Source: a bacterium (GTDB taxonomy: Bacteria > UBA6262 > WVXT01). Taken from it: DNA of 52,022 nucleotides. Positions 3,252 through 24,972 of this stretch are shown here, piece after piece (position 1 is the first letter of the stretch; the number at the start of each line of letters is the position of its first letter). Both the position numbers and the translations under genes were made by a program. Location: positions 1 to 52,022 of the forward strand of contig JBHIBS010000010.1 in NCBI GenBank assembly GCA_046759165.1, in the 5' to 3' direction. The notes under the pieces are model-generated. The model had not been told where the DNA came from, made no database searches, and saw only the letters and a list, made by a program, of their open reading frames with translations.

Positions 3252-4175
3252 TCACCTAAAAAGGTCCGTGCTTAGATATCTGTCACCACTATCAGCCAGG
3301 ACAGTAACCACCGTCTTACCTTTACCCAGCTTCTTGGCAACCTGCAACGACGCCCAGACATTGGCTCCAGAGGAGATTCCCACCAGTAACCCCTCCTCCC
3401 TGGCCAATCTCTTTGCCATTCTCTTTGCATCTTCTCCGCTAACTTTAATTACACCATCCAATAGCTCTACATCCAGAACTTCTGGTACAAATCCTGCCCC
3501 AATCCCTTGAATTTTATGTGGACCGGGCTTGCCTCCTGATAATACTGAGCAGTCCTCTGGTTCCACTGCAATAATTTTTATTCCGGGGTTCTTCCTTTTC
3601 AACAATCTCCCCACGCCAGTTAAAGTCCCCCCTGTTCCCACTCCTGCTACAAAAGCATCTATTCTTCCCCCGATCTGCCTCCAGATTTCCTCGCCTGTGG
3701 TCCTGTAATGGATATGGGGATTGGCAGGATTATTGAACTGCTGAGGCATAAAATAGTCTCGATTTTCCCTAACCAACTCTTCAGCCTTCTTTACTGCTCC
3801 TAACATCCCTTGACTTCCAGGGGTGAGAAGAATCTTTGCTCCATATGCCTGAAATAGTTGTCTTCGTTCGATGCTCATATTGTCCGGCATTACCAGAATA
3901 AGCCTGTATCCTTTCACTGCAGCGACCAATGCCAAACCAATCCCCGTATTTCCGCTTGTAGGTTCAACAATGGTTGCTCCTCTTTTCAAATAGCCATTCC
4001 TTTCAGCAGCTTCCACCATAGAAAGTCCGATTCTATCCTTAACGCTGCCTCCAGGATTTGCTAATTCAAGTTTCCCCAAGATATGAGCTCCACGGACAGC
4101 TCCAACGCGATCTAGCTTAACCATGGGTGTGGAACCAATCAATTCTATAACATTATCTACAACCTTAAGACTCAT
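3252..4175 (-). CDS. cysK: Cysteine synthase A (O-acetylserine sulfhydrylase)
   Basis: NPGGSVKDR (PLP Lys), [24 protein letters not shown]; overlaps cysE stop. Confidence 0.95.
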
Positions 4176-4902
4176 TCTTCCTTCTCTCTCTTTCCTCAGT
4201 AAATTCTTTTTTTATCTCTTTCTTTTTTCTTTCGACATATCTATCTATTTCCCCCGTGATGCCTTCCAAATTCTCTAATTTACTCAGCCTCTTCTCCAAT
4301 AAGTCCTGTCCTCTCAAAACAAGGCGAATTGCATCAGCAACCGGGTCTGGAAGTTTAGAGTGTTCCAGTGCCTGAATCTCTTTCCCACTGAAACCCAGCC
4401 CAATCCTTCCAGGTATTCCCACCACAGTTGCCTTTGGGGGAACATCGCTTAGAACCACTGACCCGGCTCCGATACGAGCATTGTCTCCAACTTTGATTGC
4501 TCCCAACAGTGTAGCTCCTGCACCTACAACTACATTATTTCCCAGAGTGGGGTGGCGTTTCTTTTTCTCCAGGCTCGTTCCTCCCAGCACCACACCCTGA
4601 TAAAGGAGACAATCGTTTCCAATCTCTGCAGTCTCGCCGATTACTACACCCATCCCGTGGTCAATGAAAAACTTCCTTCCAATAGTCGCTCCTGGATGAA
4701 TCTCGATTCCCGTGATCCATCGACTAATGTGAGAAATTAAACGGGCAATCACATATTCCTTCCTCTTATAGAAAAAATGGCCAATCCGATGAAACCACAA
4801 AGCATGGAGTCCAGGATAGCACAATATTACCTCAATAACGTTCTTTGCAGCCGGATCCTTCTCAAAGACTGTTCGAACATCCTCTATAATAGTTTTAAAC
4901 AT
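4165..4902 (-). CDS. cysE: Serine O-acetyltransferase
   Basis: DPAA...[33 protein letters not shown] hexapeptide repeats. Confidence 0.95.
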
Positions 4903-11889: not shown

Positions 11890-12735
11890 TTATCCTTCTG
11901 TTTTTGAATTCTTTTGATTTGTGGGACTCGAATTCCTTAAACTACAAAATTCCTCATAATCAATCAATTTTTTTATTGTGGGCTTGTCTCCACAAACCAA
12001 GCAGTCCTTATCTCTGACAAATTTAACACTTCTAAAGCTCATCTCCAAAGCGTCAAAAATAAGGAGTCTCCCAATCAATAACTCGCCCTTGCCAAGAATT
12101 AGTTTCAGAACCTCGCTAGCTTGAATTATGCCCAGAACGCCGGCAACCACACCCAGAATGCCCGCTTCCTGACAAGAAGGTACCAATCCCGGGGGAGGTG
12201 GCTCGGGAAAGAGACAACGGTAACAAGGTCCCTGCTGAGGGAGCACAGTAGTTGCTTGGCCATCAAAGCGTAAGATTCCAGCATGGGAGAATGGTTTATT
12301 CAATAAGACACAAGCATCGTTTACCAAATACCGTGTGGGAAAATTATCACTTCCATCAACAATTATATCATAATCTTTAATTATATCCAGAATGTTATCC
12401 GAATTAAGCCTCAGTTGGTAAGTAGCTACTTCTATATCAGTATTAAGATTCTGCAATTTATTTTTTGCCGACTCTGTTTTTGGCACACCAATATCCTTTG
12501 TGGAGTGGAGAATTTGACGTTGTAAATTGTTTAGCTCCACCTTATCACTATCCACCAGTCCGATCTTTCCTACCCCGGCTCCTGCCAGGTAGAAAGCGCA
12601 GGGGGAACCCAAACCACCACAACCAATAATGAGAACCTTAGCTTTCATAATCTTCTCCTGACCTTTTCCTCCTACCTCTGGTAAAATTATCTGTCTGCTG
12701 TATCTTTCGATTTGATCATTTTTGAAACTAACCAT
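11890..12735 (-). CDS. moeB: MoeB/ThiF-family sulfur-carrier adenylyltransferase (E1-like)
   Basis: ERYSRQI, GCGGLG, NLQRQ, DGSDNF, CYRC and CLVC zinc motifs, SCQEAG; ATG 12735 has GGAGG RBS (track start 12789 probably too long). Confidence 0.9.
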   Translation of the reverse strand: MVSFKNDQIERYSRQIILPEVGGKGQEKIMKAKVLIIGCGGLGSPCAFYLAGAGVGKIGLVDSDKVELNNLQRQILHSTKDIGVPKTESAKNKLQNLNTDIEVATYQLRLNSDNILDIIKDYDIIVDGSDNFPTRYLVNDACVLLNKPFSHAGILRFDGQATTVLPQQGPCYRCLFPEPPPPGLVPSCQEAGILGVVAGVLGIIQASEVLKLILGKGELLIGRLLIFDALEMSFRSVKFVRDKDCLVCGDKPTIKKLIDYEEFCSLRNSSPTNQKNSKTEG

Positions 12736-12809
12736 ATCTTTACCTCCTATGTAAATCAGTAAGTCACCTTTTTCCTCGAGATCTCGCAATTAAATTCGGG
12801 GAACCAGAG

Positions 12810-13046
12810 TTATACCTTTCTGATTAGAAGTCTAAAAGCACCTTCAATTCTTTTCACCCCTATAATTTCGTGACCTTCCTCCTTTACGCTTCGAGGAACA
12901 TTTTTAATTGGTTCACCCTCATCAATGAGTACTTCTAGTATTTGTCCTTTATTCATTTCTTCGAGTTTAAGCTTTGTCTTGACAAAATTAATTGGACATA
13001 CCACACCTCGCAAATCGAGCTTTTCATCAGCTTTTATTTCATTCAC
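12810..13046 (-). CDS. TusA/SirA-family sulfurtransferase
   Basis: LDLRGVVCPINFVKTKLKLEEM...GEPIKNVPRS. Confidence 0.9.
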   Translation of the reverse strand: MNEIKADEKLDLRGVVCPINFVKTKLKLEEMNKGQILEVLIDEGEPIKNVPRSVKEEGHEIIGVKRIEGAFRLLIRKV

Positions 13047-13894
13047 TTTATTTTCTCCTTAAAATAATCTATTCCCACACGGTCCAGTGTCTCGCGGAAG
13101 CGTTCGCCCTTTTTACCTTCTTTTCGATAGAACTCCAATGTCTTTTCTACAGTTTCAAACAGCTTATCTTCGGAAGGAACAAAGTCAAAAACTTTCTGGC
13201 CAAGGGCTGGAAACTTTCCCATTTTACCTCCCACATAAACCGCATAACCGTCCTGCTTCTTCTCCCAGGCTCCAGTGGGACAGACCAAAACACACTCCGC
13301 ACAACCAATGCATTTAGCCTCCTCGTATAAGAGCTTTTCCCCATTAACAGTGATTGCCTTCACAGGACATACTTCTGCACAAAGTCCACAGTAATTGCAG
13401 AGTTCTTCGTTGAAGTTTTTCTCGATTTTTCCCATAACCCCAAAGTCATTTTCTAAAGGCTTTACGCAAGCGTTGGGGCACCCTGTAATACCAATTTTGA
13501 ACTTCTGAGGCAACCCTCCCCTGCCAAAAAACTTCTTGTCAACTTTCTTCCCAATTGCCTGGGCATCGATAAGGCCATGGGAACATATGCCACCCTGGCA
13601 GGCAGTCACTGTCCTCACCCGAGGACCACAAGCACCGACCTCCAGTCCCACTTTTGATAATTCCTTCTTTACCTTATCAAAATCATTAAAGTGTACGTAG
13701 GGAATCTCAATTCCCTGACGAGTAGTAAGATGCATATGTCCACGACCATATTTATTGGCGATTTCAGCTAATTTAGGTAATTGATCGCTACGCACATAGC
13801 CACCAGCACAACGGAGTCTCACTGAAAAGAGATCCTTTTCCTTCTGTTTCATAAAACCACCAGCTTTTAGTTCTTTAATATTGTACTCTGCCAT
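13043..13894 (-). CDS. Small siroheme-[4Fe-4S] sulfite reductase with inserted ferredoxin domain
   Basis: HLTTRQG, VTACQGGIC and GCPNAC siroheme-cluster ligands, two CxxCxxCxxxCP motifs, GERF; sits in sulfate assimilation operon. Confidence 0.85.
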   Translation of the reverse strand: MAEYNIKELKAGGFMKQKEKDLFSVRLRCAGGYVRSDQLPKLAEIANKYGRGHMHLTTRQGIEIPYVHFNDFDKVKKELSKVGLEVGACGPRVRTVTACQGGICSHGLIDAQAIGKKVDKKFFGRGGLPQKFKIGITGCPNACVKPLENDFGVMGKIEKNFNEELCNYCGLCAEVCPVKAITVNGEKLLYEEAKCIGCAECVLVCPTGAWEKKQDGYAVYVGGKMGKFPALGQKVFDFVPSEDKLFETVEKTLEFYRKEGKKGERFRETLDRVGIDYFKEKIK

Positions 13895-13905
13895 TTTCCG
13901 CTCCT

Positions 13906-15099
13906 TTAAATTTCAAAATATTGTTGTATACTGAAGTACCTCTCTCCAGTATCGGGAAGGATAACTATGACCCTTTTCCCTTTCCCCAAATCTTTGGCAA
14001 TTTTTAGGGCAGCAAAAGCAGCTGCTCCCGAAGATATTCCTGCAAATATGCCTTCTTCTTTAGCTAACCTCTGAGTTGTATTGTAGGCTTCTTCATCTCT
14101 CACCGTAACTATCTCATCGATTATTTTCCGGTTCAATACATCGGGAACGAACCCTGCGCCAATACCTTGAATCTTGTGAGGTCCACATGGTTCGCCGGAA
14201 AGAACAGCTGAACTATGTGGTTCAACAGCAATTATCTTTACTTGGGGATATTCCCTTTTGATAACTTCTCCCACACCAGTTATAGTTCCTCCTGTGCCTA
14301 CTCCAGCTACTAAAGCATCCAATTCTCCATTAGTAGCTACTAAGATTTCTCGGGCAGTAGTTTGGCGATGGATTTCTGGATTAGCAGGATTTTTAAACTG
14401 TTGGGGTAGAAAAACATCTGGATTTTTAGCTGCAATCTCCTCAGCTTTTTTTACCGCTCCCATCATTCCTTTAATTGCCGGAGTAAGTACTATTTCGGCA
14501 CCAAAACTTTTGAGGATATAAATTCTTTCTAAACTCATCGACTCAGGCATAGTGAGAATACATTTATATCCTTTAACAGCACATACCATAGCCAGACCAA
14601 TCCCTGTGTTTCCACTTGTAGGTTCAACGACAATTGAACCTGGTCTTAATTTTCCTTCTTTTTCTGCCGCCTCCATCATACTGAGTGCTATTCTATCTTT
14701 AACACTTCCTCCCGGGCTATAGGATTCAAGTTTTGCATAAATTTCGGCCATCTTATCACTAACTATTCGGTTTAACCTTACCACCGGCGTATTTCCAATT
14801 AAATGCAATATGCTTTGGGCAACTCTTCTCCCACATTTTCCATCACTTTGATTAAAACTTCCCACTTGCGTGTTGGCTTTTTCTCTTTCTTCTCGGCCGC
14901 CGCCTATGAAGAACACTATTTCTACCCTATCCCCGTTTTTCAGAAAAACTGAATCGTAATCCTTGCGCTCGATAACCTCATCGTTAACTTCTACTGTGAC
15001 AATACTGGGTCGAATATTCTTTTTCTGAAGAAACTGAGAGATATTCATCTCACCTTCTAATATTTTTTCTTTTCCATTAACAAAAATTTTTCCTGTCAT
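13906..15099 (-). CDS. ThiS-like sulfur carrier fused N-terminally to cysteine synthase
   Basis: aa 1-68 beta-grasp pattern (IFVNG...VEVN...GDRVEIVFFIGGG), linker of about 24 aa, then CysK motifs IGNTP, SVKDR, TSGNTG, HKIQGIG. Confidence 0.88.
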   Translation of the reverse strand: MTGKIFVNGKEKILEGEMNISQFLQKKNIRPSIVTVEVNDEVIERKDYDSVFLKNGDRVEIVFFIGGGREEREKANTQVGSFNQSDGKCGRRVAQSILHLIGNTPVVRLNRIVSDKMAEIYAKLESYSPGGSVKDRIALSMMEAAEKEGKLRPGSIVVEPTSGNTGIGLAMVCAVKGYKCILTMPESMSLERIYILKSFGAEIVLTPAIKGMMGAVKKAEEIAAKNPDVFLPQQFKNPANPEIHRQTTAREILVATNGELDALVAGVGTGGTITGVGEVIKREYPQVKIIAVEPHSSAVLSGEPCGPHKIQGIGAGFVPDVLNRKIIDEIVTVRDEEAYNTTQRLAKEEGIFAGISSGAAAFAALKIAKDLGKGKRVIVILPDTGERYFSIQQYFEI

Positions 15100-15101
15100 T
15101 A

Positions 15102-16514
15102 TTAGTACCTCCTATATGGATCCCCTTGTGAACCATGGAGAAAATTAGAATTTCCCTCGCTGGTAATCGTTGCCTTCAGCTTGCCACTAAAGCCTTTCCT
15201 AAAAGATGTACTTTTTGCAATTTCTCGCAAGGCGAAGTTAGCCGCATGAATAGTCTTGTCAATATCTTCCTTTGTGTGACTTAAGGAAATAAAACATGAC
15301 TCAAATTGTGAAGGAGGGAAATAAATTCCTTCCTTTAGCATTTTTCTAAAGAATTGAGCATACTTTTCTGTATTTGCTTTTCCAGCTGTATTATAATCTG
15401 TTACCTCTTCCTTAGCAAAGAAAACAGTGAATATAGAACCGATTCGGTTAATCCTGATTTTCACTCCCAACTTTTCTGCATTTTTCTTCAGTCCTTGACA
15501 GAGAAGTTTCGTTCGTTCCTCAAGTAACTTATATACTTTATTTTGGGAGAGGATTTTTAGAGTTGCTAAACCTGCTGTAACTGCTACGAGATTACCGGAA
15601 AGAGTTCCCGCTTGATATACTTTACCCAAGGGTGAGATATATTTCATAATTTCTTTTTTTCCCCCATAAGCACCTACGGGGAATCCACCTCCAATTATTT
15701 TTCCCAAACAAGTTAAATCTGGTTTTACTTTGTAAATTTCCTGTGCCCCTCCATAGGCTACTCTGAAACCAGTAATTACTTCATCGAAAATAAGAACTAT
15801 TTTATACTGGTCGCAAATCTCACGCAATCCCTGTAAAAAACCTGGTTTGGGCAAGACTACTCCCATATTTCCCGCAATTGGTTCAACAATGATACAGGCT
15901 ATATCCTGATGATACTTTTTGACCGTTTTCTCTACTGCGGTTAGATCGTTATAAGCCAATACCAAAGTATGCTTGACAAAGTCTTTCGGTACGCCAAGGC
16001 TGTTTGGTACACCAAAAGTAGTAGCTCCGGACCCCGCGCCAACCAAAAAATAATCGGCGTGACCGTGGTAACACCCTTCAAATTTTATGATTTTTGCTCT
16101 CCCAGTATAACCTCTGGCCAGCCTAATTGCACTCATAGTAGCTTCAGTCCCTGAGTTTACTAACCGCACCAACTTGATTGAGGGAAATGTTTTACAGATT
16201 TCTTTAGCTAATTCAGTCTCTTCTTTAGTGGGAGCGCCAAAACTCGTTCCTTTAGAAACAGCCCTGCTAACCGCCTTAATCACTTCTGGATGAAGGTGTC
16301 CTAAAATTAATGGCCCCCAAGACATCATGTAATCAACATATTCTTTGCCTTCCACATCATAAATTCTCGAACCCTTAGCGTGACTAATAAATACAGGTTC
16401 GCTGTTCACCGCCCGGAAAGCACGAACTGGACTATTTACTCCACCAGGAATATATTTCTGTGCTTCATAATAGAAACTCTTATTTAAATTAGACTTCCTT
16501 AAGATTTTAACCAT
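15102..16514 (-). CDS. hemL: Glutamate-1-semialdehyde 2,1-aminomutase
   Basis: [53 protein letters not shown]. Confidence 0.95.
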
Positions 16515-17473
16515 TTTGCTACTTCCTTAGCCCAGTAGGTGATAATAATATCTGCTCCTGCTCGTTTTATGCTCGTTAGCATTTCCAAAACTATTTTCTT
16601 CTCCTCCAACCATCCTCTCTGGCTGGCAGCTTTAACCATTGCGTATTCTCCACTCACGTTGTAAGCAGCTATTGGCACAGTAAACTCATCTCTTACTCGC
16701 GAAATAATATCCAAATATGCTAAAGCTGGCTTGACCATAACAATATCTGCTCCTTCTTCTACGTCTAACTTTATTTCAGAAATAGCCTCGTCACTATTGG
16801 CTGGGTTCATCTGGTACAATTTACGGTCACCAAACTGCGGTGAAGAATTGGCTGCCTCGCGGAAAGGACCGTAGAATGAAGAAGCATATTTAGCAGAATA
16901 GGACATAATAGCAGTTTTTCTATATCCATTATTATCCAAATTTTCTCGAATTGTTTTTACTTGTCCATCCATCATTGCTGAGGGAGCAACAATGTCAGCG
17001 CCAGCTTGAGCATGAGACAACGCTGTTCTTGCTAATAGTTCTATAGTAGAATCATTATCGATTTCCCCGTCTTTAACTATTCCGCAATGTCCATGAACAG
17101 TGTAACTACATAGACATACATCAGTAATTATCGTAAGAGCGGGAATTTCTTTTTTGACCTCTCTTACAGCCCGTTGAACAATGCCGTCCTTAACATAGGC
17201 TTGAGAACCCAGTGCATCTTTCTTCTCTGGAATTCCAAAAAGTAATATCGCAGGAATTCCCACTTGTTCCACTTCTTTTGTTTCTTTAATCAAATTATCA
17301 ATGGAAATCCTGCATATTCCTGGCATGGACTCAATTGGTTCTATAGCTTTCTTACCAGTAATTATAAAATATGGCATGATTAAATCATCAATAGATATAC
17401 GTGTTTCGCCAATCATTCTTCGTAATCGTTCGTTCTTTCGCAGTCTGCTTAGTCTATGTAAAGGATAACCCAT
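16499..17473 (-). CDS. hemB: Porphobilinogen synthase (Zn-type)
   Basis: [42 protein letters not shown]. Confidence 0.96.
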
Positions 17474-17475
17474 TA

Positions 17476-18861
17476 TTAAATCACCTTCGCATTAAGTCCA
17501 TAACTTTTAGCCTGTGCTTGTGTAATTTCACCAATACATTTAACCTTTACCCGTCTGGGTAGCTTCTTGTACTCTTTCATAAAATTATTCACTGTTGATG
17601 GACTGGTGAATATAATTTCTTCAATATCGTCGAGATTGATTTTACTAACCTTAGGTTTTATATTTCGATAGACTGTTATAGTGTCAACATTAGCCCCTAA
17701 GTCTTCCAGTGCTTTAGAAAGATAATTGCCGGCAAGATTAGAACGCGGTATGAGGATATTTTTACCCCGTATATCGAAATTCCTGAATGCTTCTACAATT
17801 CCTGTTGAAGACTCTTTTTCTGGAATAAAATTTACAGTGATTCCGTACTTTTTCAGCCTTTTACCGGTAGCACTGCCGACGGCACAAATTTTTATTCCTC
17901 TTAAAGCTTTCATATCTTTTATATTTTTCTTAAATCTCTTAAAGAAAAATTCTACGCCATGAACACTGAGAAATATTACCCAGTGATATTTTTTAATATC
18001 TTGTATTTTCTGATCGGTCTCTCTGTAATTATCTAAAGGGACAATTTTTATCATCGGCTGATGAATGATCTCGCCTAGAGATTCAAATTTTTTTGGATTG
18101 GTACCAGTCACTAAAATTTTTGGTCTCCTTAAGCTCACTACCTCTCCTACTAAAATGACCGCTGGTGGTTCAAACTTCTCTTTCTTTGCTTTTCCAACAA
18201 TGTCTTTTAAATTCCCCATAACTACTCTTTGCCCAGGTAGAGTGGCTTTTTCAACTATAGCTACAGGCATATCGTTTTTTAAGCCTGCTTTTTTAAGCCT
18301 CGTAATGATTCGGGGTAGATTTTCCATTCCCATATAAAAGACCAGTGTGCCTTGGCGAGGGATACTCTTCCAGGCGATGAAACTCGTCTTTCGATTCGCT
18401 TCGTGACCGGCAATCAAGGTAACCAGCGAAGCATATCTTCGATCAGTGAGGGGTATATTTAGTGAAGCGGCTACTGCCTGGGCAGCAGTTATTCCGGGGA
18501 TAACTTCATATGGAATGCCAGCATTATTTAAAGCTTCTATCTCCTGTCCTCCTCTACCAAAGATAAAGGGATCGCCGTTTTTCAACCGGCAAATAATTTT
18601 ACCTTCTCTGGCACTTCTAATCATTAATTGGTTTATCTTCTTTTGAGCCACAATAAAGCCATCCGAATAATGTTTGCCTCCTAAACTGGCAGTACAGATT
18701 TTTTCTGCTTGCGGACGAGCGGACTTTAAAAATTCTCCATTCACTAAATAGTCATAAATTATGATATCTGCTCCCTGGAGACACTTTTTTCCTTTAATGG
18801 TAATCAATTCCGGCTCTCCCGGACCAGCACCCACTAAATAAACTTTACCCGTCTTACTCAT
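17476..18861 (-). CDS. cobA: Uroporphyrinogen-III C-methyltransferase / uroporphyrinogen-III synthase fusion (CobA-HemD)
   Basis: [28 protein letters not shown]-domain; HemD motifs [31 protein letters not shown]. Confidence 0.88.
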
Positions 18862-18878
18862 CGACTAATCCTTCCACC

Positions 18879-20627
18879 TTACTGCTTCAGCCATCTGACT
18901 CCGGCAAACGTTTTCTGGACAGAGGAAATAATCTTTTTGCGACTATATATTTTCTTCACTATTTCTTTAGTTCGTTCATCTTTTTCTCTTATTTCCAGAG
19001 CAAGTGACCCCTGTAATGGGTGAGGTTGTAAAATATCAAATGGAATCCTCTGGACTATTCTTTTCTCCAAACCTAAACGCACAAGGCCAATAGCGGCAAT
19101 TACAATAGCGTCTAAATCACTGTTATCTAACTTCCTTAATCGCTCTTCAATATTGCCTCGAATATCCACTATCTTAAAATCATTTCTGTAAGCCTGCAAT
19201 TGGGTTTTCCGACGTAAACTACTCGTGCCTATCCTCGCTCTATAAGGAAGTTCATCTAACTTTAGATTTCTCTTAGAAACCAGAACGTCGTAAGAATCTA
19301 CGGATTCACTTATAGCTGCAATAGTTAAACCGTTAGGGATCGACTCTGGCAAGTCTTTAGCACTATGTACGGCTAAATCGATTTCTCGGTTAATGAGTGC
19401 TTGTTCAATTTCTCTTGTGAAAAAGTCCGTACCTTCCAATTTCTCTAAAGGCGTCTCTTTATCCCCATCACCTGTAGTTTCAATCTCGATAATTTCAAAT
19501 TTCTGATGAGGATTTATTCTTTTTAATAGAGCTATTATTTCCCCTACCTGTTTAAGAGCTAAAGGGCTGGGTCTGGTGCCAATTCTAATAATACTGTTTA
19601 TGTGTGGCATACTACTCCTACCAAAATTATCGACAAATTTCTCCGTTTCCTCTTCCACAATTTTCTCGGCACGTTTTGCCTCTTCTTTTCTTTGTTTATG
19701 ATTACTTTCGATTATTGAGTTCAAGTCATCTAAGTTATATAAAATTACATTACTGACATTCTTTACTTCAGGATCTACATCCCGCGGTAAGGCAAGATCC
19801 ATTATAACCAAAGTTTTTCTTCGTAACTCCATTATCTCTGAAATTATTTCCCTTTTTATAATTAAGTGAGGACTTGCCGTAGCACTAATAACAATGTCCG
19901 CTTCTTTCAATTCCTCTTTTAATCTATCAAACCTGACTGCTTTCCCTCCCACTTTTGAAGCCAACAGGCAAGCATTTTCGTAAGTTCTATTGGCAATAAA
20001 CACCCCGGAGACTTCTCTATCTTTCAGATATTTAGTTACTAATTCGCCAATTTTGCCTGTGCCAATAATTAAAATTTTCTTTCCTGTTAACCTTTGCCAA
20101 AACTCCTCGAGCATTTTCAAAGCTACCTTACCTATAGATAGGTTACCCTGGGATATTCTTGTCTTTGTCCTCACAAGTTTTCCTACTGCGCTTGCTTTCT
20201 GGAATAATCTATTAAACAGCCCATTTGTTGTTCCCATTTCCTTCGCTTGTAGATATGCTGATTTCACTTGACCTAAAATTTGGTTCTCTCCGATAACTTG
20301 AGAATCTAAACCACTAGCTACACGAAAAAGATGCTTAATAGCTTCTTTATCTTTTAAAAGATAGAGATATTTACTATTTCTATTTTCTTCGAGGTGATGA
20401 TAGTTTACAAGAAAATTCCGTAATTCTACCTGTCCCATCTCCATATCATTAATACAAGTATAAATCTCCACCCGGTTACAGGTGGAAAGGATTACTGCCT
20501 CATCAATTGATTCCATCTCCAGCAATTTAGATAAAGCTTCTCCCAGTCTTTTTCTGGAAAAGGCAAACCTCTCTCTTATTTTTAAGGGCGCGGTCTTATG
20601 ACTTATTCCTATTAGAATCAGATTCAT
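18879..20627 (-). CDS. hemA: Glutamyl-tRNA reductase / truncated hydroxymethylbilane synthase fusion (HemA-HemC)
   Basis: STCNRVE, GLDSQVIGENQI, DLALPRD; then IRIGTRPSPLA, VHSAKD, GTSSLRR, IRGNI; ends before HemC domain 3. Confidence 0.88.
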   Translation of the reverse strand: MNLILIGISHKTAPLKIRERFAFSRKRLGEALSKLLEMESIDEAVILSTCNRVEIYTCINDMEMGQVELRNFLVNYHHLEENRNSKYLYLLKDKEAIKHLFRVASGLDSQVIGENQILGQVKSAYLQAKEMGTTNGLFNRLFQKASAVGKLVRTKTRISQGNLSIGKVALKMLEEFWQRLTGKKILIIGTGKIGELVTKYLKDREVSGVFIANRTYENACLLASKVGGKAVRFDRLKEELKEADIVISATASPHLIIKREIISEIMELRRKTLVIMDLALPRDVDPEVKNVSNVILYNLDDLNSIIESNHKQRKEEAKRAEKIVEEETEKFVDNFGRSSMPHINSIIRIGTRPSPLALKQVGEIIALLKRINPHQKFEIIEIETTGDGDKETPLEKLEGTDFFTREIEQALINREIDLAVHSAKDLPESIPNGLTIAAISESVDSYDVLVSKRNLKLDELPYRARIGTSSLRRKTQLQAYRNDFKIVDIRGNIEERLRKLDNSDLDAIVIAAIGLVRLGLEKRIVQRIPFDILQPHPLQGSLALEIREKDERTKEIVKKIYSRKKIISSVQKTFAGVRWLKQ

Positions 20628-21067
20628 AAAATCACCTTTATTTCATCTCTGATTCTCTTAGCCAGACTTGGCGATTTTCCATTTGTTGATACACTAATTA
20701 CTGACTTCTTCTTCCTCATAATTGCTGGTAAAATAAAACTTGAATCCTTCGCTGAATCGGCTACATTGACTAAAATTCCTAACCTCTTTGCATCTCTGGC
20801 TATTTGGGCATTAACTTTTCGTTGGGAAGTCGCCGCATAGACAAGAAAGGCTCCCTTAAGCATATCCGGTGAGTATTCAAGTTTAACATATCTTATCTTC
20901 TTTGTCCTGTAAAGTTTCCTTAGCCCGGTGGTCAATTCCGGGCTAATTATCTTTACTTTCCCATCAAAGGAGAGAATATTCTTCGCTTTCCTCTCAGCAA
21001 CTTTCCCGCCACCAACAATTACACATTTTCTATTTTTGATGTTAAGATTTATAGGATAAAAAATCAT
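20624..21067 (-). CDS. Precorrin-2 dehydrogenase (SirC/Met8/CysG-N family), short form
   Basis: YPINL, VGGGKVAERK, NVAD, FILPA, ISVSTNGKSPSLA; only 147 aa. Confidence 0.85.
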   Translation of the reverse strand: MIFYPINLNIKNRKCVIVGGGKVAERKAKNILSFDGKVKIISPELTTGLRKLYRTKKIRYVKLEYSPDMLKGAFLVYAATSQRKVNAQIARDAKRLGILVNVADSAKDSSFILPAIMRKKKSVISVSTNGKSPSLAKRIRDEIKVIL

Positions 21068-21070
21068 TTT

Positions 21071-21478
21071 TTATTCTCTTATTATTTTTAATTCGTCTTC
21101 GCTAATTTTCCCTTCCTCTATTCTGAAGGATTTCACCTGTGATACTTCTCTATTGATTAAAGATACAATCAAATAGGAAACCTCTGGATAAAAAGCTAAT
21201 TCCAAATCTTTCCCTGATGGATGAGCGGGAACATTAATATGAGAATGATAGATAGCTAACATCTCCATTCCCAACTCTCTAATCTCCTTGAAAACTTTTA
21301 GCTGTTCAGTAGGTTCCATAAAATAACACGTAACCGGGGCCTCAGAGACATTCCTCATCTGGTAGACTTTCTCTATTCTTCCTTCTCTCCCCGCAAGTAT
21401 TCCACATGCTTCATGTGGATACTCTTTTTTACTGTGTTCTATTATCTGATTAAGCAAATTTTCAGTTAAAGAAATCAT
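21071..21478 (-). CDS. JAMM/MPN+ (M67) metalloprotease, Mec/HcyD-like
   Basis: PHEACG and YHSH..PAHPS..D JAMM motif; ATG 21478 overlaps upstream TGA (ATGA). Confidence 0.9.
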   Translation of the reverse strand: MISLTENLLNQIIEHSKKEYPHEACGILAGREGRIEKVYQMRNVSEAPVTCYFMEPTEQLKVFKEIRELGMEMLAIYHSHINVPAHPSGKDLELAFYPEVSYLIVSLINREVSQVKSFRIEEGKISEDELKIIRE

Positions 21479-22437
21479 CCGAATATAGTAAGTAATAAGA
21501 AAGATAGAGACATGGCTATTAAGGGACTGATTAGCCATACCATTAAAGTTTTTTTCGCTATGGAACGTCTTATAGTATAGTTATGACCATTCTTCAAACT
21601 AGAAATTCCAAATAGAGCAGCGATCTTCAAATGGACAAATGACTGAGGCACACCTAATGCTGAAGCAATAATCATCAGCGTGCCGGTAACGAAACAGACC
21701 AACACAGCAGTGAATACACCTAAGGGGACAATTTCTTTGCCTGCAGCTTCAATGGGTTTTCTGAAAACAGCCCCTCCTATTCCAAATAGAGGTGCGATTA
21801 GAAGTAGTCCCCACATTTGGTCCAAAATCTTTGCCCCCGCCAAAGGACCAACAGCATTGGCCACGTTATTCGTGCCTACAGCAAAAGCGCTATAGCAACT
21901 ACTTAATATAACAAAGATTTTTAGCCGTTTCTGGTGACTAAAAATCTTTTCATATAACCTGAAGTTTTTATCTCGCGGCGGATAAAAAAATTTGCCTAAG
22001 TAGAGCGTTAAAGTATAAGCAATGACTGGCAGAATTATCCACATAGGAATCAGAAACGCAAATGTACGGCCTAAAAGCTTACCGAAATGCAAACCAGCTC
22101 CTACGATTGCTCCTACCGTTACCAAACTCGTGGATTGGGGAACTTTTAATAAGTTAGCCAGAAACAGGCTGGAAGTGGCCGAGAAAAGTATGATTAAACA
22201 GACATTAAAATCTATAAGTTCTTCGAGGATGATTCCTTTACTTAATGTCTTACTCACAAATTTACCTAAAAGAAGTGCTCCCAGAATAACAAATATTCCA
22301 AATAATAGTATAGCCCTTTTTCTTTTAATTATATTGCTTCCATAAGCGCCTCCGAAGGCAGCGGCAATGTTAGCCCCTCCCATATTCAGAGCAAAAAATA
22401 TTACTATGGCTATTAACAGTACAACTTTAATGAGCAT
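21475..22437 (-). CDS. PiT-family anion permease, probable sulfate permease (CysP-like)
   Basis: NMGGANIA and GTNNVANAVGP repeats, about 10 TM helices, directly downstream of sat; alternative start 22455. Confidence 0.8.
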   Translation of the reverse strand: MLIKVVLLIAIVIFFALNMGGANIAAAFGGAYGSNIIKRKRAILLFGIFVILGALLLGKFVSKTLSKGIILEELIDFNVCLIILFSATSSLFLANLLKVPQSTSLVTVGAIVGAGLHFGKLLGRTFAFLIPMWIILPVIAYTLTLYLGKFFYPPRDKNFRLYEKIFSHQKRLKIFVILSSCYSAFAVGTNNVANAVGPLAGAKILDQMWGLLLIAPLFGIGGAVFRKPIEAAGKEIVPLGVFTAVLVCFVTGTLMIIASALGVPQSFVHLKIAALFGISSLKNGHNYTIRRSIAKKTLMVWLISPLIAMSLSFLLLTIFG

Positions 22438-23596
22438 TCTTTCGCCACCATTCAATCAAAATATTAGCTACTTCCGGACGAGTAAATTCTCTTGGAGGTA
22501 TCTCGCCTGCCCTCAATAGTTCTCTTACCTGGGTGCCACTTAAGGAAAAATGTTCACTTTCTGGGTGGGGACAGGTTCTATAAGAGACCATTCCTTGACA
22601 TTTTCTGCAATAAAAGGTTACACCAAAAAAAAGTGGCGTTATCCCTATTTCTTCAAAGGAAAATTCATCGAAAATATCTTGGGCAGCAAAAGGTTTATAA
22701 TAATTTCCTACCCCGGCGTGGTCTCTTCCCACGATAAAATGCGTGCAGCCATAATTTTTTCTTACTATGGCATGAAAGATTGCTTCCCGAGGTCCGGCAT
22801 ACCTCATGGCTGCTGGATTAACTGCAAGAACAACCCGATCTTTAGGATAATATTTCTCCAACAACACCTCGTAACATTTCATTCGAACTTCAACGGGAAT
22901 GTCGTCTTTTTTGGTCTCCCCCACTATGGGATGAAGGAGGAGACCATCGACTATCTCCAAGGCACATTTCTGGATATATTCATGGGCTCGATGAATGGGA
23001 TTCCTCGTCTGGAATCCTACAATCCTTCTCCAGCCTCTTTCTCGAAATATTCTTCGCGTATCCACAGGGTCAAGACGATACTTGGGCCAACTATCGTGTT
23101 TGGGACGTTGAATCATGGTAATCTTACCGGAAAGGAGAACTTCTCCTTTTTGGTAAACAGCCTTCACTCCTGGGTGAGCTTCTTCCTCTGTTCCGTAGAC
23201 CGATTCCGCCTCTCTCTTCTTATCATACCTATATTTCTCTGTAAGGTGAAAGATAGCTAAAATATTATTGCTCTCATCTAATAAACTAACATCTTCTCCC
23301 TCTCTTAGCACCTCAGCCTCTTCCTTGGTCACCGCCAGAGTTATGGGAATAGTCCATGGCAACCCGGAGACCAATCTCATATTGTTTATCACGCTCTCAT
23401 AATCTTCTTTGCTCATAAATCCTTCCAGGGGACTAAATCCACCGATGGCAATTAGCTCCAGGTCAGAGACTTCTCTCTCAGTAAGGTAGATTTTCTTCAA
23501 TGCTTGGGCCTTCCTGAAATAGTCTTCTCTTTTTTTCTCTTCTACCATTCTATTTATGAGCACCCCTCCATGGGGAGCGACTTCTGTATCTGCCAT
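22427..23596 (-). CDS. sat: Sulfate adenylyltransferase
   Basis: PHGG, GGFSPLEGFM, FQTRNPIHRAHE, MRYAGPREA, VGRDHAG, SGTQVRE; ATG 23596 has GAGGTG RBS. Confidence 0.96.
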   Translation of the reverse strand: MADTEVAPHGGVLINRMVEEKKREDYFRKAQALKKIYLTEREVSDLELIAIGGFSPLEGFMSKEDYESVINNMRLVSGLPWTIPITLAVTKEEAEVLREGEDVSLLDESNNILAIFHLTEKYRYDKKREAESVYGTEEEAHPGVKAVYQKGEVLLSGKITMIQRPKHDSWPKYRLDPVDTRRIFRERGWRRIVGFQTRNPIHRAHEYIQKCALEIVDGLLLHPIVGETKKDDIPVEVRMKCYEVLLEKYYPKDRVVLAVNPAAMRYAGPREAIFHAIVRKNYGCTHFIVGRDHAGVGNYYKPFAAQDIFDEFSFEEIGITPLFFGVTFYCRKCQGMVSYRTCPHPESEHFSLSGTQVRELLRAGEIPPREFTRPEVANILIEWWRKNAH

Positions 23597-23635
23597 TTTA
23601 AGCACCTCTTTGAATTGTAAACTAAAGTTAAATTT

Positions 23636-24364
23636 TTATTTACTTTTCTTGGGGTGTAAACCGCACTCTTTTTGTTCCGGCTTCTCCCACCACCAACGTC
23701 CAGCCCTTATATTCTCTCCCGGCTTAATAGCTCTGGTACAGGGAGCACAACCCATGCTGGGGTAATTCTGGTCGTGTAAGGCATTATAAGGGACACACTT
23801 AGCCCTAATATAGTCCCACACCTGTCTTTCACTCCAATCAGCCAGTGGATTTACTTTGATAATCGCCCCATGTGCTTCATCGAGCTCGACTTTCTTAATC
23901 TGGGTCCGGGTTATTGATTGCTCTCTGCGCAAACCAGAAATCCAGGCAGAGAGCTTTGATAAGGCTCTGTTTAAAGGCTCTATCTTTCTCACTTTACAGC
24001 ATAACTGTCGAAGGTCGATACTCCTATAGAAAAGATTGGGACCATGCTCGGCTACCATTTTTTCCAGCGCGCCAGCATCAGGACAGTAGACTTCAAACCT
24101 TACTCCGTATTTCTGTTTAATCTTTTCCATTACATCATATGTTTCCTGAGGAAGTCTTCCCGTATCTAAAGTAAAAATACGAGCTTGGGGGTCGATTTTC
24201 ACCATCATATCAATCAACACTACATCTTCCGCCCCAAAACTTGATGCCAAGGCTATCTTTTCTTTGTATTTGCCCAACGCCCACTGCAAAACTTCCTCAG
24301 CACTTTTATTCTCCAGTTCTTTCGCTATTTTCTCTAATTCCGCTTCTATCCTCTCCTTTTCCAT
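23636..24364 (-). CDS. cysH: Assimilatory APS reductase (Fe-S type CysH)
   Basis: SSFGAED, LDTG, LCCKVRK and SMGCAPCT cluster ligands, RAGRW, C-terminal ECGLH; ATG 24364 has GAGGAGG RBS. Confidence 0.92.
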   Translation of the reverse strand: MEKERIEAELEKIAKELENKSAEEVLQWALGKYKEKIALASSFGAEDVVLIDMMVKIDPQARIFTLDTGRLPQETYDVMEKIKQKYGVRFEVYCPDAGALEKMVAEHGPNLFYRSIDLRQLCCKVRKIEPLNRALSKLSAWISGLRREQSITRTQIKKVELDEAHGAIIKVNPLADWSERQVWDYIRAKCVPYNALHDQNYPSMGCAPCTRAIKPGENIRAGRWWWEKPEQKECGLHPKKSK

Positions 24365-24455
24365 TCTGAGATCCTCCTCTGAAATTTTTTTCATTCCTCC
24401 AAAGCAGCCGGGCAATTAATCACTGTCTCCAAACACAGTCTTCAGGACTTCCAAA

Positions 24456-24899
24456 TTAGATATAGTACATACTTCCCTTCATTTTCTGGGTTATGTTGCA
24501 AATATCTTCAAATGATACATGGTCAATGACTCCAGCCATCGCCTCCTGGACTTCTTTCCAGATTAACTTGAACCCACAGGAGGCCTCTTTAGAACACCGC
24601 TCCCGCGGAGCATCCTCCAGGCAGACTAGCGCCACCAATGGGCCCTCGATGACTCTTATAACCTCACCCAACATTATCCGGCTGGGAGGCTGAGTTAAAA
24701 AATAGCCCCCTTCGCGACCTTTCCTGCTTCCCACCAATCCAGCCTGCCGAAGTTGGGACAATATTTGGACAAGGAATTTTCTAGGGATTTTCTGCCTCTC
24801 TGCAATTATACGAATGGGCACAGGCCTGTTTCTTCGATACCGAAAGGCCAATTCTAATAGAGCCATACAGGCATATTCTCCCTTTGCTGAAATCTTCAT
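24456..24899 (-). CDS. Rrf2-family regulator, CymR-like
   Basis: MKISAKGEYA, GSRKGREGGY, three Cys, C-terminal MYYI; heads sulfate assimilation operon. Confidence 0.88.
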   Translation of the reverse strand: MKISAKGEYACMALLELAFRYRRNRPVPIRIIAERQKIPRKFLVQILSQLRQAGLVGSRKGREGGYFLTQPPSRIMLGEVIRVIEGPLVALVCLEDAPRERCSKEASCGFKLIWKEVQEAMAGVIDHVSFEDICNITQKMKGSMYYI

Positions 24900-24914: not shown

Positions 24915-24972
24915 TAAAAGACTACTATGTTAATCAATTTACTATTATATAATAATAAAAAAATTTTGTCAA
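24915..24972 (-). promoter_or_regulatory. Consensus sigma70 promoter plus downstream imperfect palindrome (candidate Rrf2 operator)
   Basis: Minus strand TTGACA (24967-24972)-N17-TATAAT (24944-24949); taaaagacta-N6-taatcaattta at about 24915-24941. Confidence 0.75.

What the first reader, a model, noticed from the sequence alone, without database searches (positions are those of the whole stretch)
11890..21478. Possible polyprotein-type sulfur relay: ThiS carrier capped by a fused cysteine synthase, with JAMM protease, E1-like enzyme, TusA and sulfite reductase in one operon
Seen: ORF 13906-15099 has a ThiS-like domain ending FFIGGG (aa 66-68, 14896-14904) that reads through a linker into a full CysK. 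A JAMM protease, MoeB, TusA and a siroheme sulfite reductase lie in the same operon, and no free ThiS/MoaD gene is visible. Known: thiocarboxylate carriers need a free C-terminal Gly-Gly. In Wolinella, JAMM HcyD trims HcyS before adenylation by HcyF; in M. tuberculosis, CysO/CysM/Mec make cysteine on a carrier. Inference: the fusion is a ubiquitin-like precursor that the JAMM protease cuts after Gly-Gly, giving carrier and synthase 1:1 and channelling sulfide into cysteine. A second, ordinary cysE-cysK pair at 3252-4902 suggests the fused copy is specialised. Caveat: the codon after GGG is CGA (14893-14895), one change from TGA.
Basis: partly seen in the sequence, partly recalled or inferred. 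Interest (0 to 1): 0.82.

Follow-up and report, generated by a model that had tools for sequence, protein, structure and literature searches.

The report
Sulfur-carrier protein fused to cysteine synthase
A small ubiquitin-like sulfur-carrier domain is made as one protein with a cysteine synthase inside a sulfate-assimilation operon, and comparison with many relatives suggests the operon's JAMM protease cuts it free so that it can carry sulfur into cysteine.

Summary
ORF 13906-15099 (-) encodes 397 aa: a ThiS domain (aa 5-68, ending GGG), an unconserved 24-aa linker, and a full CysK.

It is not an assembly error. Contigs from three runs agree, and a related strain reads AGG (Arg) in place of CGA. 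In addition, 47 of 80 related loci carry the same in-frame fusion.

Thirty of the 80 are split into thiS + cysK, and 27 of those ThiS proteins carry 1-28 extra residues after GGG. Fused and split forms interleave on the CysK tree (at least 4 well-supported switches, 15 by parsimony). GGG is invariant and linker length varies.

A JAMM gene sits in 17 of 18 fused loci with long flanks, and it is the only JAMM in this genome. A complex model places G66-E70 across the JAMM catalytic residues (0.92; best control 0.00).

Best reading (0.7): cysteine synthesis through a protein thiocarboxylate, like M. tuberculosis CysO/CysM/Mec and Wolinella HcyS/HcyD. The carrier is released from its synthase by JAMM, as shown for MoaD-MoaE fusions. 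Cleavage itself is inferred, not shown.

This is a new variant of known kinds, of moderate interest.

The parts
24944..24972 (-). Promoter-like site (TTGACA-17-TATAAT, 12 of 12) upstream of the Rrf2 gene. Probable start of the operon.
   Evidence: This is a consensus match only.
24456..24899 (-). Rrf2-family regulator, first gene of the cluster.
   Evidence: Pfam Rrf2, E 4.7e-37.
23636..24415 (-). APS/PAPS reductase (CysH type).
   Evidence: PAPS_reduct, E 3.1e-53. TIGR02055 scores 271 bits against a cut-off of 235.
22427..23605 (-). ATP sulfurylase (Sat).
   Evidence: Pfam ATP-sulfurylase + PUA_2. NF003166 scores 589 bits.
21475..22455 (-). PiT/PHO4-family permease, CysP-like sulfate permease.
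   Evidence: PHO4, E 2e-40. NF053884 SulfPermCysPBac scores 246 bits, below its cut-off of 400.
21071..21478 (-). JAMM/MPN+ metalloprotease (the ORF is open to 21538; probable start at M21). The only Prok-JAB in the genome. Proposed to cut after G68 of the fusion and to release cysteine from the carrier.
   Evidence: Prok-JAB, E 1.6e-23. One hit in the genome. E23, H78, S79, H80, S88 and D91 are invariant in 25 of 25 sequences. Complex model.
20624..21067 (-). SirC-like precorrin-2 dehydrogenase / sirohaem synthase N-terminal module.
   Evidence: NAD_binding_7 + Sirohm_synth_M.
18879..20627 (-). HemA-HemC fusion (glutamyl-tRNA reductase + hydroxymethylbilane synthase, the latter covering profile positions 1-221 of 293).
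   Evidence: TIGR01035 at aa 4-334 and TIGR00212 at aa 347-567.
17476..18861 (-). CobA-HemD fusion (uroporphyrinogen-III methyltransferase + synthase).
   Evidence: TIGR01469 at aa 5-245; NF004593 at aa 248-459.
16499..17473 (-). HemB, porphobilinogen synthase.
   Evidence: NF006762, 517 bits.
15102..16514 (-). HemL-type class-III aminotransferase (glutamate-1-semialdehyde aminomutase-like).
   Evidence: Aminotran_3, E 3.4e-78.
14896..15099 (-). ThiS sulfur-carrier domain of the fusion (aa 1-68), ending FFIGGG. An AGGAGG sequence lies 8 nt upstream of the ATG.
   Evidence: G66, G67 and G68 are invariant in 29 of 29 sequences.
14827..14895 (-). Linker (aa 69-91, REEREKANTQVGSFNQSDGKCGR), unconserved and predicted disordered. 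The proposed scissile bond is G68|R69.
   Evidence: The linker columns are unaligned or absent in relatives. pLDDT is below 50 for aa 62-93. Residues 62-70 lie in the modelled JAMM interface.
13906..14826 (-). CysK (O-acetylserine sulfhydrylase type) domain of the fusion, aa 92-397.
   Evidence: TIGR01139, 456.9 bits. The best PDB matches are CysK-type. It belongs to the ThiS-linked CysK clade.
13043..13894 (-). Small sirohaem-type sulfite reductase with a ferredoxin insert (AsrC/DsrB-like, 283 aa).
   Evidence: NIR_SIR, NIR_SIR_ferr and Fer4. TIGR02912 scores 168 bits, below its cut-off.
12810..13046 (-). TusA/SirA-family sulfurtransferase.
   Evidence: TusA, E 2.8e-23.
11890..12789 (-). MoeB/ThiF-type E1-like adenylyltransferase without a rhodanese domain (probable start M18).
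   Evidence: ThiF, E 2.8e-87. NF004281 scores 290 bits against a cut-off of 266.
3252..4902 (-). Separate ordinary cysE (4165-4902) and cysK (3252-4175) pair in an Rrf2-NifU-...-cysteine desulfurase cluster. Probable source of O-acetylserine.

Best explanation
The cluster from about 24972 to 11890 (-) is a self-contained operon that takes sulfate to cysteine.

Gene content:
- An Rrf2 regulator.
- APS/PAPS reductase, ATP sulfurylase and a CysP-like permease.
- JAMM protease.
- A full sirohaem pathway.
- ThiS-CysK.
- A small sulfite reductase, TusA and MoeB.

Proposed mechanism:
1. The 397-aa ThiS-CysK protein is a precursor.
2. The JAMM protease hydrolyses the G68-R69 bond. This gives a 68-aa carrier ending in Gly-Gly-Gly and a CysK enzyme in a 1:1 ratio.
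3. MoeB adenylates the freed glycine carboxylate.
4. Sulfur from the sulfite reductase, directly as sulfide or through a TusA persulfide, converts the acyl-adenylate to a thiocarboxylate.
5. The CysK domain adds the thiocarboxylate to the aminoacrylate made from O-acetylserine. CysE at 4165-4902 supplies the O-acetylserine.
6. After S-to-N acyl shift, the same JAMM hydrolyses the Gly-Cys bond, releasing cysteine and recycling the carrier.

The pathway already needs a protease that cuts 'GG-X'. Any C-terminal extension of the carrier is therefore tolerated, whether one residue, a tail made by gene overlap, or the whole downstream enzyme. This would explain why fused, tailed and exact-end forms alternate among relatives.

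Shown here: the domains, the reading frame, conservation, gene linkage and the fused/split pattern.

Inferred: cleavage, adenylation, thiocarboxylation, the substrate, and product release.
For: 1. The fusion is real. The frame is open. Contigs of X1-X3 are identical at the junction, and X4 reads AGG (Arg). All of the best 120 of 8000 scored homologues carry PF02597 + PF00291.

2. The carrier end is under selection. G66, G67 and G68 are invariant in 29 of 29 sequences, and GGG is present in 80 of 80 loci. The segment after it is unconserved. The part after GGG is 301-322 aa in the 45 complete fused loci and 329 aa in the window. It is predicted disordered, with pLDDT below 50 for aa 62-93.

3. 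The best 80 of 143 relatives of the ThiS subfamily in species-representative genomes divide as follows:
- 47 fused to CysK.
- 30 split with cysK immediately downstream.
- 2 fused to TusA.
- 1 other.

Among the 30 split carriers, 27 have 1-28 residues after GGG and 3 end at GGG. The split cysK genes have their own starts: spacers of 15-95 nt with GGAGG-like sites, or ATGA overlaps. Identical split forms recur in independent assemblies (L117/L118, L123/L125, L151/L160).

4. G018 (CysK 69% identical) has ThiS 'FFMGGGR' + TAA TAA, followed by a separate cysK.

5. The tree of 73 ThiS-linked CysK domains needs 15 fused/split changes, and at least 4 are forced by starred branches.

6. JAMM linkage. 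It is found in 17 of 18 fused and 7 of 9 split loci with at least 6 kb on both sides. In 21 loci it ends within 65 nt of the ThiS start. Five of 5 genomes whose locus showed no JAMM have one elsewhere. It is the only Prok-JAB in this genome. The catalytic motif is invariant in 25 of 25 sequences.

7. The complex model of JAMM with ThiS aa 1-82 scores 0.92 in each of three runs, best of 3 controls 0.00. That mark was reached by 58 of 80 solved complexes and 2 of 110 mismatched pairs. Contact agreement is at least 89% and partner pLDDT at least 82. The interface holds JAMM residues 23, 25, 27, 78 and 88-91 and ThiS residues 62-70. JAMM-Ubl complexes have been solved (recalled), so the pass may reflect likeness to them.

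8. Precedents in print (passages read):
- HvJAMM1 cuts a SAMP1-MoaE linear fusion exactly after the last Gly and is needed for its activity (PMC4443979).
- DRJAMM cuts the natural MoaD-MoaE fusion DR2607 (PMC8832034).
- Mec+ hydrolyses the CysO-cysteine adduct (PMC3227635).
- The neighbourhood ThiS/MoaD + JAB + E1 without rhodanese + SirA + sulfate-assimilation genes is Iyer et al.'s type 4e (PMC1779556).
Against: - Nothing here shows cleavage, a thiocarboxylate, or use of the carrier by the CysK domain.
- The CysK domain looks like an ordinary sulfide-using CysK. It scores over the cysK cut-off and under the cysM cut-offs. Its best solved relatives are CysK-type. Only 2 positions (I195, F395) separate the ThiS-linked clade from plain CysKs at my thresholds.
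- The genome also has two plain CysKs and three free ThiS/MoaD proteins.
- JAMM was not detected in 20 of 47 fused and 9 of 30 split loci. Most of these are short contigs, but absence cannot be excluded there.
- JAMM genes are fairly common anyway: 6 of 21 genomes counting G000 (5 of the 20 relatives) and 6-8 of 14 control genomes.
- Some 'split' forms with long tails could be frameshift errors in metagenome assemblies.
- The AF2 model is only moderate (mean pLDDT 71, 29 sequences).
- An in-frame GTG at V80 in the linker could in principle start a separate CysK. I see no GGAGG-like site before it (read).
- The tree is a quick LG+G4 search.
Confidence: 0.7

Rival explanations
1. The fusion stays intact. 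The ThiS domain is not a sulfur carrier but a docking or regulatory module, for example recruiting CysK to MoeB, TusA or sulfite reductase. CysK uses free sulfide.
For: The CysK domain is indistinguishable from ordinary CysK by family scores and has almost no clade-specific residues. Iyer et al. describe Ub-like domains fused to ThiF that co-occur with stand-alone ThiS and are thought to play a different role (PMC1779556).
Against: GGG is invariant in 29 of 29 and 80 of 80 sequences, although a docking domain would not need it. Close relatives make the same domain as a free 64-70-aa protein (30 of 80 loci). Repeated fused/split switches argue that the two forms do the same job. JAMM and MoeB would have no substrate in the operon. 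The junction docks in the JAMM active site in the model.
Confidence: 0.12
2. The carrier system is real but feeds a product other than cysteine, such as homocysteine, a thio-cofactor or tRNA thiolation. Alternatively, JAMM acts only at product release and another protease or internal initiation separates the two halves.
For: The characterised member of the 4e neighbourhood type makes homocysteine with MetY (Wolinella; PMC8191291 passage, further details recalled). ThiS of this subfamily is also found fused to TusA (L132, L156) or next to no CysK (L164). An in-frame GTG lies at V80.
Against: CysK directly follows or is fused to this ThiS in 77 of 80 loci. TIGR01139 cysK is an equivalog model passed with 457 bits. 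The operon holds no MetY. Mec-type JAMM chemistry (GG-X hydrolysis) is the same for product release and precursor trimming (PMC3227635).
Confidence: 0.1
3. The fusion is an assembly or sequencing artefact: a lost stop codon or a frameshift between separate thiS and cysK genes.
For: CGA is one change from TGA. 30 of 80 related loci are split.
Against: Contigs from three runs are identical at the junction, and a related strain from another study reads AGG. A 91%-identical, 397-aa homologue and 119 further top hits have both domains in one protein. 47 of 80 loci from many phyla are fused in frame. The window's linker has no ATG, and I see no start with a ribosome-binding site for a separate cysK.
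Confidence: 0.01

Closest known systems
M. tuberculosis CysO / CysM / Mec+ / MoeZR cysteine pathway
   Same: A small beta-grasp carrier with a C-terminal GG, a PLP cysteine synthase and a JAMM protease are encoded side by side. In many relatives the order is JAMM-carrier-synthase, the same as mec-cysO-cysM (order recalled). The JAMM hydrolyses a GG-Cys bond (PMC3227635).
   Different: The carrier is ThiS-type (TIGR01683), not the MoaD-like CysO. The synthase is CysK-type: cysK 457 bits over its cut-off, cysM 298 bits under it. The E1 lacks a rhodanese domain and a TusA gene is present instead. The carrier is translated fused to the synthase. The cluster sits in a full sulfate-reduction + sirohaem operon.
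Wolinella succinogenes HcyS / HcyD / HcyF / MetY methionine pathway, i.e. Iyer-Burroughs-Aravind neighbourhood type 4e
   Same: ThiS/MoaD + JAB + E1 without rhodanese + SirA/TusA + sulfite reductase, ATP sulfurylase, PAPS reductase and a sulfate transporter (PMC1779556). The carrier is made with extra C-terminal residues that a JAMM must remove (HcyS-Ala; recalled, the paper is not held).
   Different: The synthase is CysK (cysteine), not O-acetylhomoserine sulfhydrylase. The 'extra residues' are a 24-aa linker plus a whole 306-aa enzyme.
JAMM-cleaved MoaD-MoaE linear fusions (D. radiodurans DR2607/DR0402, M. tuberculosis MoaX, engineered SAMP1-MoaE/HvJAMM1)
   Same: The carrier is N-terminal to its partner enzyme, with GG at the junction. 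The fusion is inactive until cut exactly after Gly, and the cut is made by a JAMM/MPN+ protease (PMC4443979; PMC8832034; PMC4326299, title and abstract start only).
   Different: A different pathway (molybdopterin versus cysteine) and a different partner fold (MoaE versus a PLP enzyme). Here the protease is encoded in the same operon and would also be needed at every catalytic turnover.

Membership tests
ThiS sulfur-carrier family (PF02597 / TIGR01683) | Beta-grasp domain matching the family profile over its whole length. | tested here: met
   TIGR01683 covers aa 5-68 = profile 1-64 of 64, 63.6 bits against a cut-off of 37.45. PF02597 scores 37.8 bits against 22.5. The best true PDB match is ThiS 2k5p/3cwi, E 1.2e-16.
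ThiS sulfur-carrier family (PF02597 / TIGR01683) | A free C-terminal Gly-Gly carboxylate available for adenylation. | tested here: not met
   In the primary translation product GGG (aa 66-68) is internal and followed by 329 residues. A free end would exist only after proteolysis, which is inferred.
ThiS sulfur-carrier family (PF02597 / TIGR01683) | Formation of a C-terminal thiocarboxylate. | not testable with these tools
   Needs mass spectrometry of the processed protein with MoeB, ATP and a sulfur donor.
CysK, O-acetylserine sulfhydrylase A (TIGR01139) | Score over the equivalog cut-off across the full profile. | tested here: met
   456.9 bits against 350.95; aa 99-393 = profile 3-297 of 298.
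CysK, O-acetylserine sulfhydrylase A (TIGR01139) | Conserved PLP-lysine and substrate (Asn) loop. The roles of these motifs are recalled. | tested here: met
   K134 in S132-V-K-D-R and T161-S-G-N-T-G166 are invariant in 29 of 29 fusions.
M. tuberculosis-type CysM (O-phosphoserine / CysO-dependent) | Sequence membership of the cysM families. | tested here: not met
   TIGR01138 cysM scores 298 bits against a cut-off of 394. NF008735 scores 287 against 413. These models are built largely on enterobacterial CysM, so the test is indirect for the mycobacterial enzyme.
Type 4e ThiS/JAB/E1 sulfur-assimilation neighbourhood (Iyer et al. 2006) | ThiS/MoaD + JAB + E1 lacking rhodanese + SirA/TusA together with sulfate-assimilation genes. 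| tested here: met
   All of these lie in one co-directional cluster, 11890-24899. Definition from PMC1779556.
Type 4e ThiS/JAB/E1 sulfur-assimilation neighbourhood (Iyer et al. 2006) | O-acetylhomoserine sulfhydrylase as the thiol-forming enzyme, as in the characterised Wolinella member. | tested here: not met
   No such gene is in the cluster. The PLP enzyme is CysK.
JAMM-processed carrier-enzyme linear fusions (MoaD-MoaE type) | Carrier N-terminal to the partner enzyme, conserved GG at the junction, and a JAMM/MPN+ gene with an intact motif in the genome. | tested here: met
JAMM-processed carrier-enzyme linear fusions (MoaD-MoaE type) | Cleavage after the last Gly by the JAMM protease. | not testable with these tools
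   There is only a structure-model pass: 0.92, best control 0.00, with the mark reached by 58 of 80 solved complexes and 2 of 110 mismatched pairs. That supports binding but does not show cleavage.

The most novel reading that the evidence does not exclude
The fusion and the tailed split forms are obligatory pro-forms, a bacterial counterpart of ubiquitin precursors. Ubiquitin too is always translated fused to something and freed by a deubiquitinase. One JAMM enzyme would both mature the carrier and turn over the product. Its activity, perhaps sensitive to metal or redox state, would then gate sulfur flux from sulfite reductase into cysteine. The carrier would be born docked on its own synthase, so that free sulfide never leaves the complex. 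In that case carrier-partner fusions (CysK, TusA, MoaE) are a general, selected design principle of prokaryotic Ubl sulfur relays and not neutral gene-overlap accidents.
Probability: 0.2. Interest if true: 0.7.

Novelty: new variant of a known kind. Interest (0 to 1): 0.5.

Why it matters
Protein-thiocarboxylate routes to cysteine and methionine have each been characterised biochemically in one organism. This locus and its roughly 80 relatives come from Omnitrophota, Planctomycetota, Elusimicrobiota, Margulisiibacteriota, Nitrospirota and other phyla.

They suggest that a CysK-based version is widespread in uncultured anaerobes. It comes bundled with its own sulfate reduction and sirohaem synthesis.

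The natural series of exact-end, tailed and fused carriers gives a ready-made test of JAMM substrate rules. It is also a bacterial parallel to ubiquitin precursor processing.

For annotation, these genes are currently named only 'cysteine synthase A', which hides the carrier.

Tried and rejected
- **Literature.** The first search was useless because 'ThiS' matches the word 'this'. Searches found no paper describing a ThiS-CysK fusion. Supplements are closed. Additional data file 1 of PMC1779556 and S1 Table of PMC4443979 could list this architecture and I could not see them. Krishnamoorthy & Begley 2011 and Tran et al. 2011 are not held, so the Wolinella details are recalled.
- **First locus scan.** The search for related loci with the whole-fusion alignment returned mostly plain CysKs. 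I therefore repeated it with a ThiS-domain alignment.
- **PDB search with the ThiS profile.** It listed designer pentatricopeptide proteins first. These are repeated weak matches of about 27 residues with no stretch passing on its own, and I rejected them as spurious.
- **Clade-specific residues.** The search for active-site residues specific to the ThiS-linked CysK clade gave only I195 and F395, so there is no evidence of a remodelled active site.
- **Base composition.** The operon shows no distinct composition: 0.39-0.41 GC against 0.36-0.44 elsewhere. The absence of the cassette from 8 of 8 same-family genomes cannot be tied to recent transfer this way.
- **RNA.** No RNA holder was listed among the sequencing runs. 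Only contigs, not raw reads, could be laid.

Full report
**What is there**

On the minus strand, ORF 13906-15099 is open for 397 codons.
- Residues 5-68 match the ThiS sulfur-carrier family end to end (TIGR01683, profile 1-64 of 64, 63.6 bits; Pfam ThiS E 2.9e-9). They end in FFIGGG (G66-G68 = 14896-14904).
- Residues 92-397 are a complete cysteine synthase A (TIGR01139, 456.9 bits against a cut-off of 350.95; PALP E 9.5e-79).
- Between them lie about 24 residues (REEREKANTQVGSFNQSDGKCGRR) with no family match.

**The surrounding genes form one co-directional cluster**

A perfect sigma-70 consensus at 24972-24944 is followed by these genes:
- an Rrf2 regulator
- APS/PAPS reductase, ATP sulfurylase and a CysP-like PiT permease
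- a Prok-JAB (JAMM) protease
- a SirC-like module, a HemA-HemC fusion, a CobA-HemD fusion, HemB and HemL
- ThiS-CysK
- a 283-aa sirohaem sulfite reductase with a ferredoxin insert
- TusA
- a MoeB/ThiF E1-like enzyme without a rhodanese domain

This is sulfate uptake, activation and reduction, synthesis of the sirohaem that the reductase needs, and a ubiquitin-like sulfur relay. An ordinary cysE-cysK pair lies at 3252-4902.

**Is the fusion real?**

Yes.
- Contigs of three runs cover the junction without a difference. X1 and X2 may be the source; X3 is another sample of the same study.
- A contig about 94% alike from a different study changes both 14893 and 14895, so that the codon reads AGG, still arginine. 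Only contigs, not raw reads, were available.
- The best 120 of 8000 scored homologues all carry ThiS + PALP in one protein of 371-417 aa (two of 514 aa). One is 91% identical and has the same length.
- The window's linker holds no ATG. I see no start with a ribosome-binding site for a separate cysK.

**Conservation at the junction**

In an alignment of 29 fusions, G66, G67 and G68 are invariant. The columns after them are unalignable, and the linker shrinks to nothing in P0064 and P0070. An AlphaFold2 model (29 sequences, mean pLDDT 71) gives pLDDT below 50 for residues 62-93, between two folded domains.

**Relatives: fused, tailed and exact-end carriers alternate**

A scan of one genome per species with a ThiS-domain alignment gave 143 relatives, and the best 80 were kept. 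They divide as follows:

| Form | Loci |
|---|---|
| ThiS-CysK fusion | 47 |
| Separate thiS with cysK directly downstream | 30 |
| ThiS-TusA fusion | 2 |
| Other | 1 |

All 80 have GGG. Of the 30 free carriers only 3 end at GGG; 27 run on for 1-28 residues.

The split cysK genes are genuine. They have spacers of 15-95 nt with GGAGG-like sites, or ATGA stop/start overlaps, and the same split form recurs in independent assemblies. Some long-tailed cases may still be assembly frameshifts.

Among 41 genomes sampled around the window's own, G012 has the fusion (69% identity). G018 has 'FFMGGGR' + TAA TAA followed by a separate cysK.

A quick maximum-likelihood tree of 73 ThiS-linked CysK domains (5 short rows left out) needs 15 fused/split changes, at least 4 of them forced by starred branches. 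The window groups (95*) with three fused and two split loci. Fused and split forms therefore appear interchangeable. Most split carriers also cannot be adenylated until something trims them.

**The protease**

Using the window's JAMM as a tblastn query, a homologue is present in 27 of 47 fused and 21 of 30 split loci. Among loci with at least 6 kb on both sides it is present in 17 of 18 fused and 7 of 9 split. In 21 loci it ends within 65 nt of the ThiS start.

Five genomes whose locus showed none all have a Prok-JAB elsewhere (5 of 5). For comparison, 5 of the 20 relatives' genomes have one (6 of 21 counting G000).

In the window's genome it is the only Prok-JAB. None was found in the 8 same-family, 2 same-order and 1 same-class genomes, which also lack the fusion. 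The catalytic residues E23, H78, S79, H80, S88 and D91 are invariant in 25 of 25 homologues.

A complex prediction of JAMM with ThiS residues 1-82 and zinc gave these results:
- It scored 0.92 in each of three runs, best of 3 controls 0.00.
- That mark was reached by 58 of 80 solved complexes and 2 of 110 mismatched pairs.
- Contact agreement is at least 89% and partner pLDDT at least 82.
- The confident interface holds JAMM residues 23, 25, 27, 78 and 88-91 and ThiS residues 62-70, that is, the GGG-R-E junction.

JAMM-Ubl complexes have been solved (recalled), so the pass may partly reflect likeness to them. It supports binding and does not show cleavage.

**The synthase**

The ThiS-linked CysK domains form nearly one clade. 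In a FastTree of 154 CysKs, one starred set holds 72 of the 75 ThiS-linked rows plus one row that was not scored as ThiS-linked (the two groups came from different scans). The Nitrospirota fusions L027 and L036 lie elsewhere, which suggests independent fusions.

The domain is otherwise ordinary. Its best solved relatives are CysK-type (2egu, 2q3b), and the cysM models score under their cut-offs. Only I195 and F395 distinguish the clade at my thresholds. I therefore cannot say from sequence that it prefers a thiocarboxylate to sulfide, or O-acetylserine to O-phosphoserine.

**Mechanism proposed**

1. JAMM cuts G68|R69.
2. MoeB adenylates the new carboxylate.
3. Sulfur from the sulfite reductase, perhaps through TusA, makes the thiocarboxylate.
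4. CysK joins it to O-acetylserine-derived aminoacrylate.
5. JAMM then hydrolyses the Gly-Cys bond of the rearranged adduct.

The last step is what Mec+ does in M. tuberculosis (PMC3227635, passages). Cutting a carrier-enzyme linear fusion exactly after Gly is what HvJAMM1 and DRJAMM do with MoaD-MoaE (PMC4443979 and PMC8832034, passages). Because both cuts are 'GG-X' hydrolysis, a pathway that needs the second gets the first for free. That would explain the drift between exact-end, tailed and fused carriers, including tails created by ATGA gene overlaps. All of these steps are inferred.

**Comparison with what is known**

The neighbourhood is type 4e of Iyer, Burroughs and Aravind: ThiS/MoaD, JAB, E1 without rhodanese, SirA and sulfate-assimilation genes. 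They noted ThiS fused to the C-terminus of sulfite reductase, but the passages I read mention no ThiS-CysK fusion (PMC1779556).

The characterised 4e member, Wolinella, makes homocysteine with MetY and trims one residue from HcyS (recalled; the papers are not held). The mycobacterial pathway uses a MoaD-like carrier, a CysM-type synthase and a rhodanese-bearing E1.

This system combines a ThiS-type carrier, a CysK-type synthase and a TusA/MoeB pair, and translates carrier and synthase as one chain. Six targeted literature searches found no description of it. Supplements that might list the architecture were closed.

**Verdict**

It is a new variant of known kinds (thiocarboxylate amino-acid synthesis; JAMM-processed carrier fusions), widespread in uncultured phyla and hidden under the name 'cysteine synthase A'. 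Interest is moderate at 0.5, and confidence in the mechanism is 0.7.

Noticed in passing
L132:10001-10462 and L156:10001-10438: ThiS of the same subfamily is fused in frame to TusA instead of CysK (..GGGM/S.. followed by the TusA CPxxF motif region). In L156 cysK lies upstream. The carrier thus gets fused to whichever gene follows it.
   Followed up: partly
Own genome contig C20 (L007:45-3708, with a CysK at G000:C20:15665-16576): A second possible carrier system: a threonine-synthase-like PLP enzyme, a 90-aa MoaD-like protein ending AIAGG, a 79-aa protein that looks NIL-domain-like (by eye), a 344-aa ThiF-family E1, a class-V aminotransferase (cysteine desulfurase-like) and a plain CysK. The same ThrC-like + MoaD-like + MoeB module lies just downstream of the ThiS cassette in L132 and L164, and the ThrC-like gene alone is visible at the end of L015. 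In L132 the MoaD-like protein is fused to MoeB.
   Followed up: partly
Own genome contigs C11 (L002:1498-1737) and C4 (L004:1471-1743): Two further free MoaD/ThiS-family genes (ending IIAGG and FLGGG). Each lies beside a gene that resembles aldehyde:ferredoxin oxidoreductase (judged by eye from the translation, not scanned).
   Followed up: no
window 18879-20627 (-): A HemA-HemC fusion in which the HemC part covers only profile positions 1-221 of 293, so the C-terminal domain of hydroxymethylbilane synthase seems to be missing. CobA-HemD is also fused (17476-18861).
   Followed up: partly
P0011 and P0014: 514-aa variants carry an extra N-terminal PF04304 (DUF454, membrane) domain ahead of ThiS-CysK. 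This would tether the precursor to the membrane.
   Followed up: no
window 13906-13926 (aa 391-397 of the fusion): The C-terminal motif QQYFE(I/A) is typical of ThiS-linked CysKs. F395 is present in 99% of 73 linked rows against 13% of 78 plain CysKs, many of which end earlier.
   Followed up: partly
window 15102-15230 (-), C-terminus of HemL: The HemL-like protein has about 45 residues beyond the Aminotran_3 match (aa 36-423 of 470). Its stop lies 2 nt before the ThiS-CysK start codon.
   Followed up: no
G001-G011 (same family, order and class as the window's genome): None of these 11 genomes showed a Prok-JAB or a ThiS-CysK fusion, whereas distant phyla do. The cassette is patchily distributed. 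Base composition gives no sign of recent transfer.
   Followed up: partly
G017:C67:8691-9964 and G012:C7:728-1956: JAMM genes lie directly next to more distant CysK/CysM homologues (43% identity to the window's domain), with no ThiS of this subfamily detected between them. These may be other mec-cysM-like arrangements.
   Followed up: no
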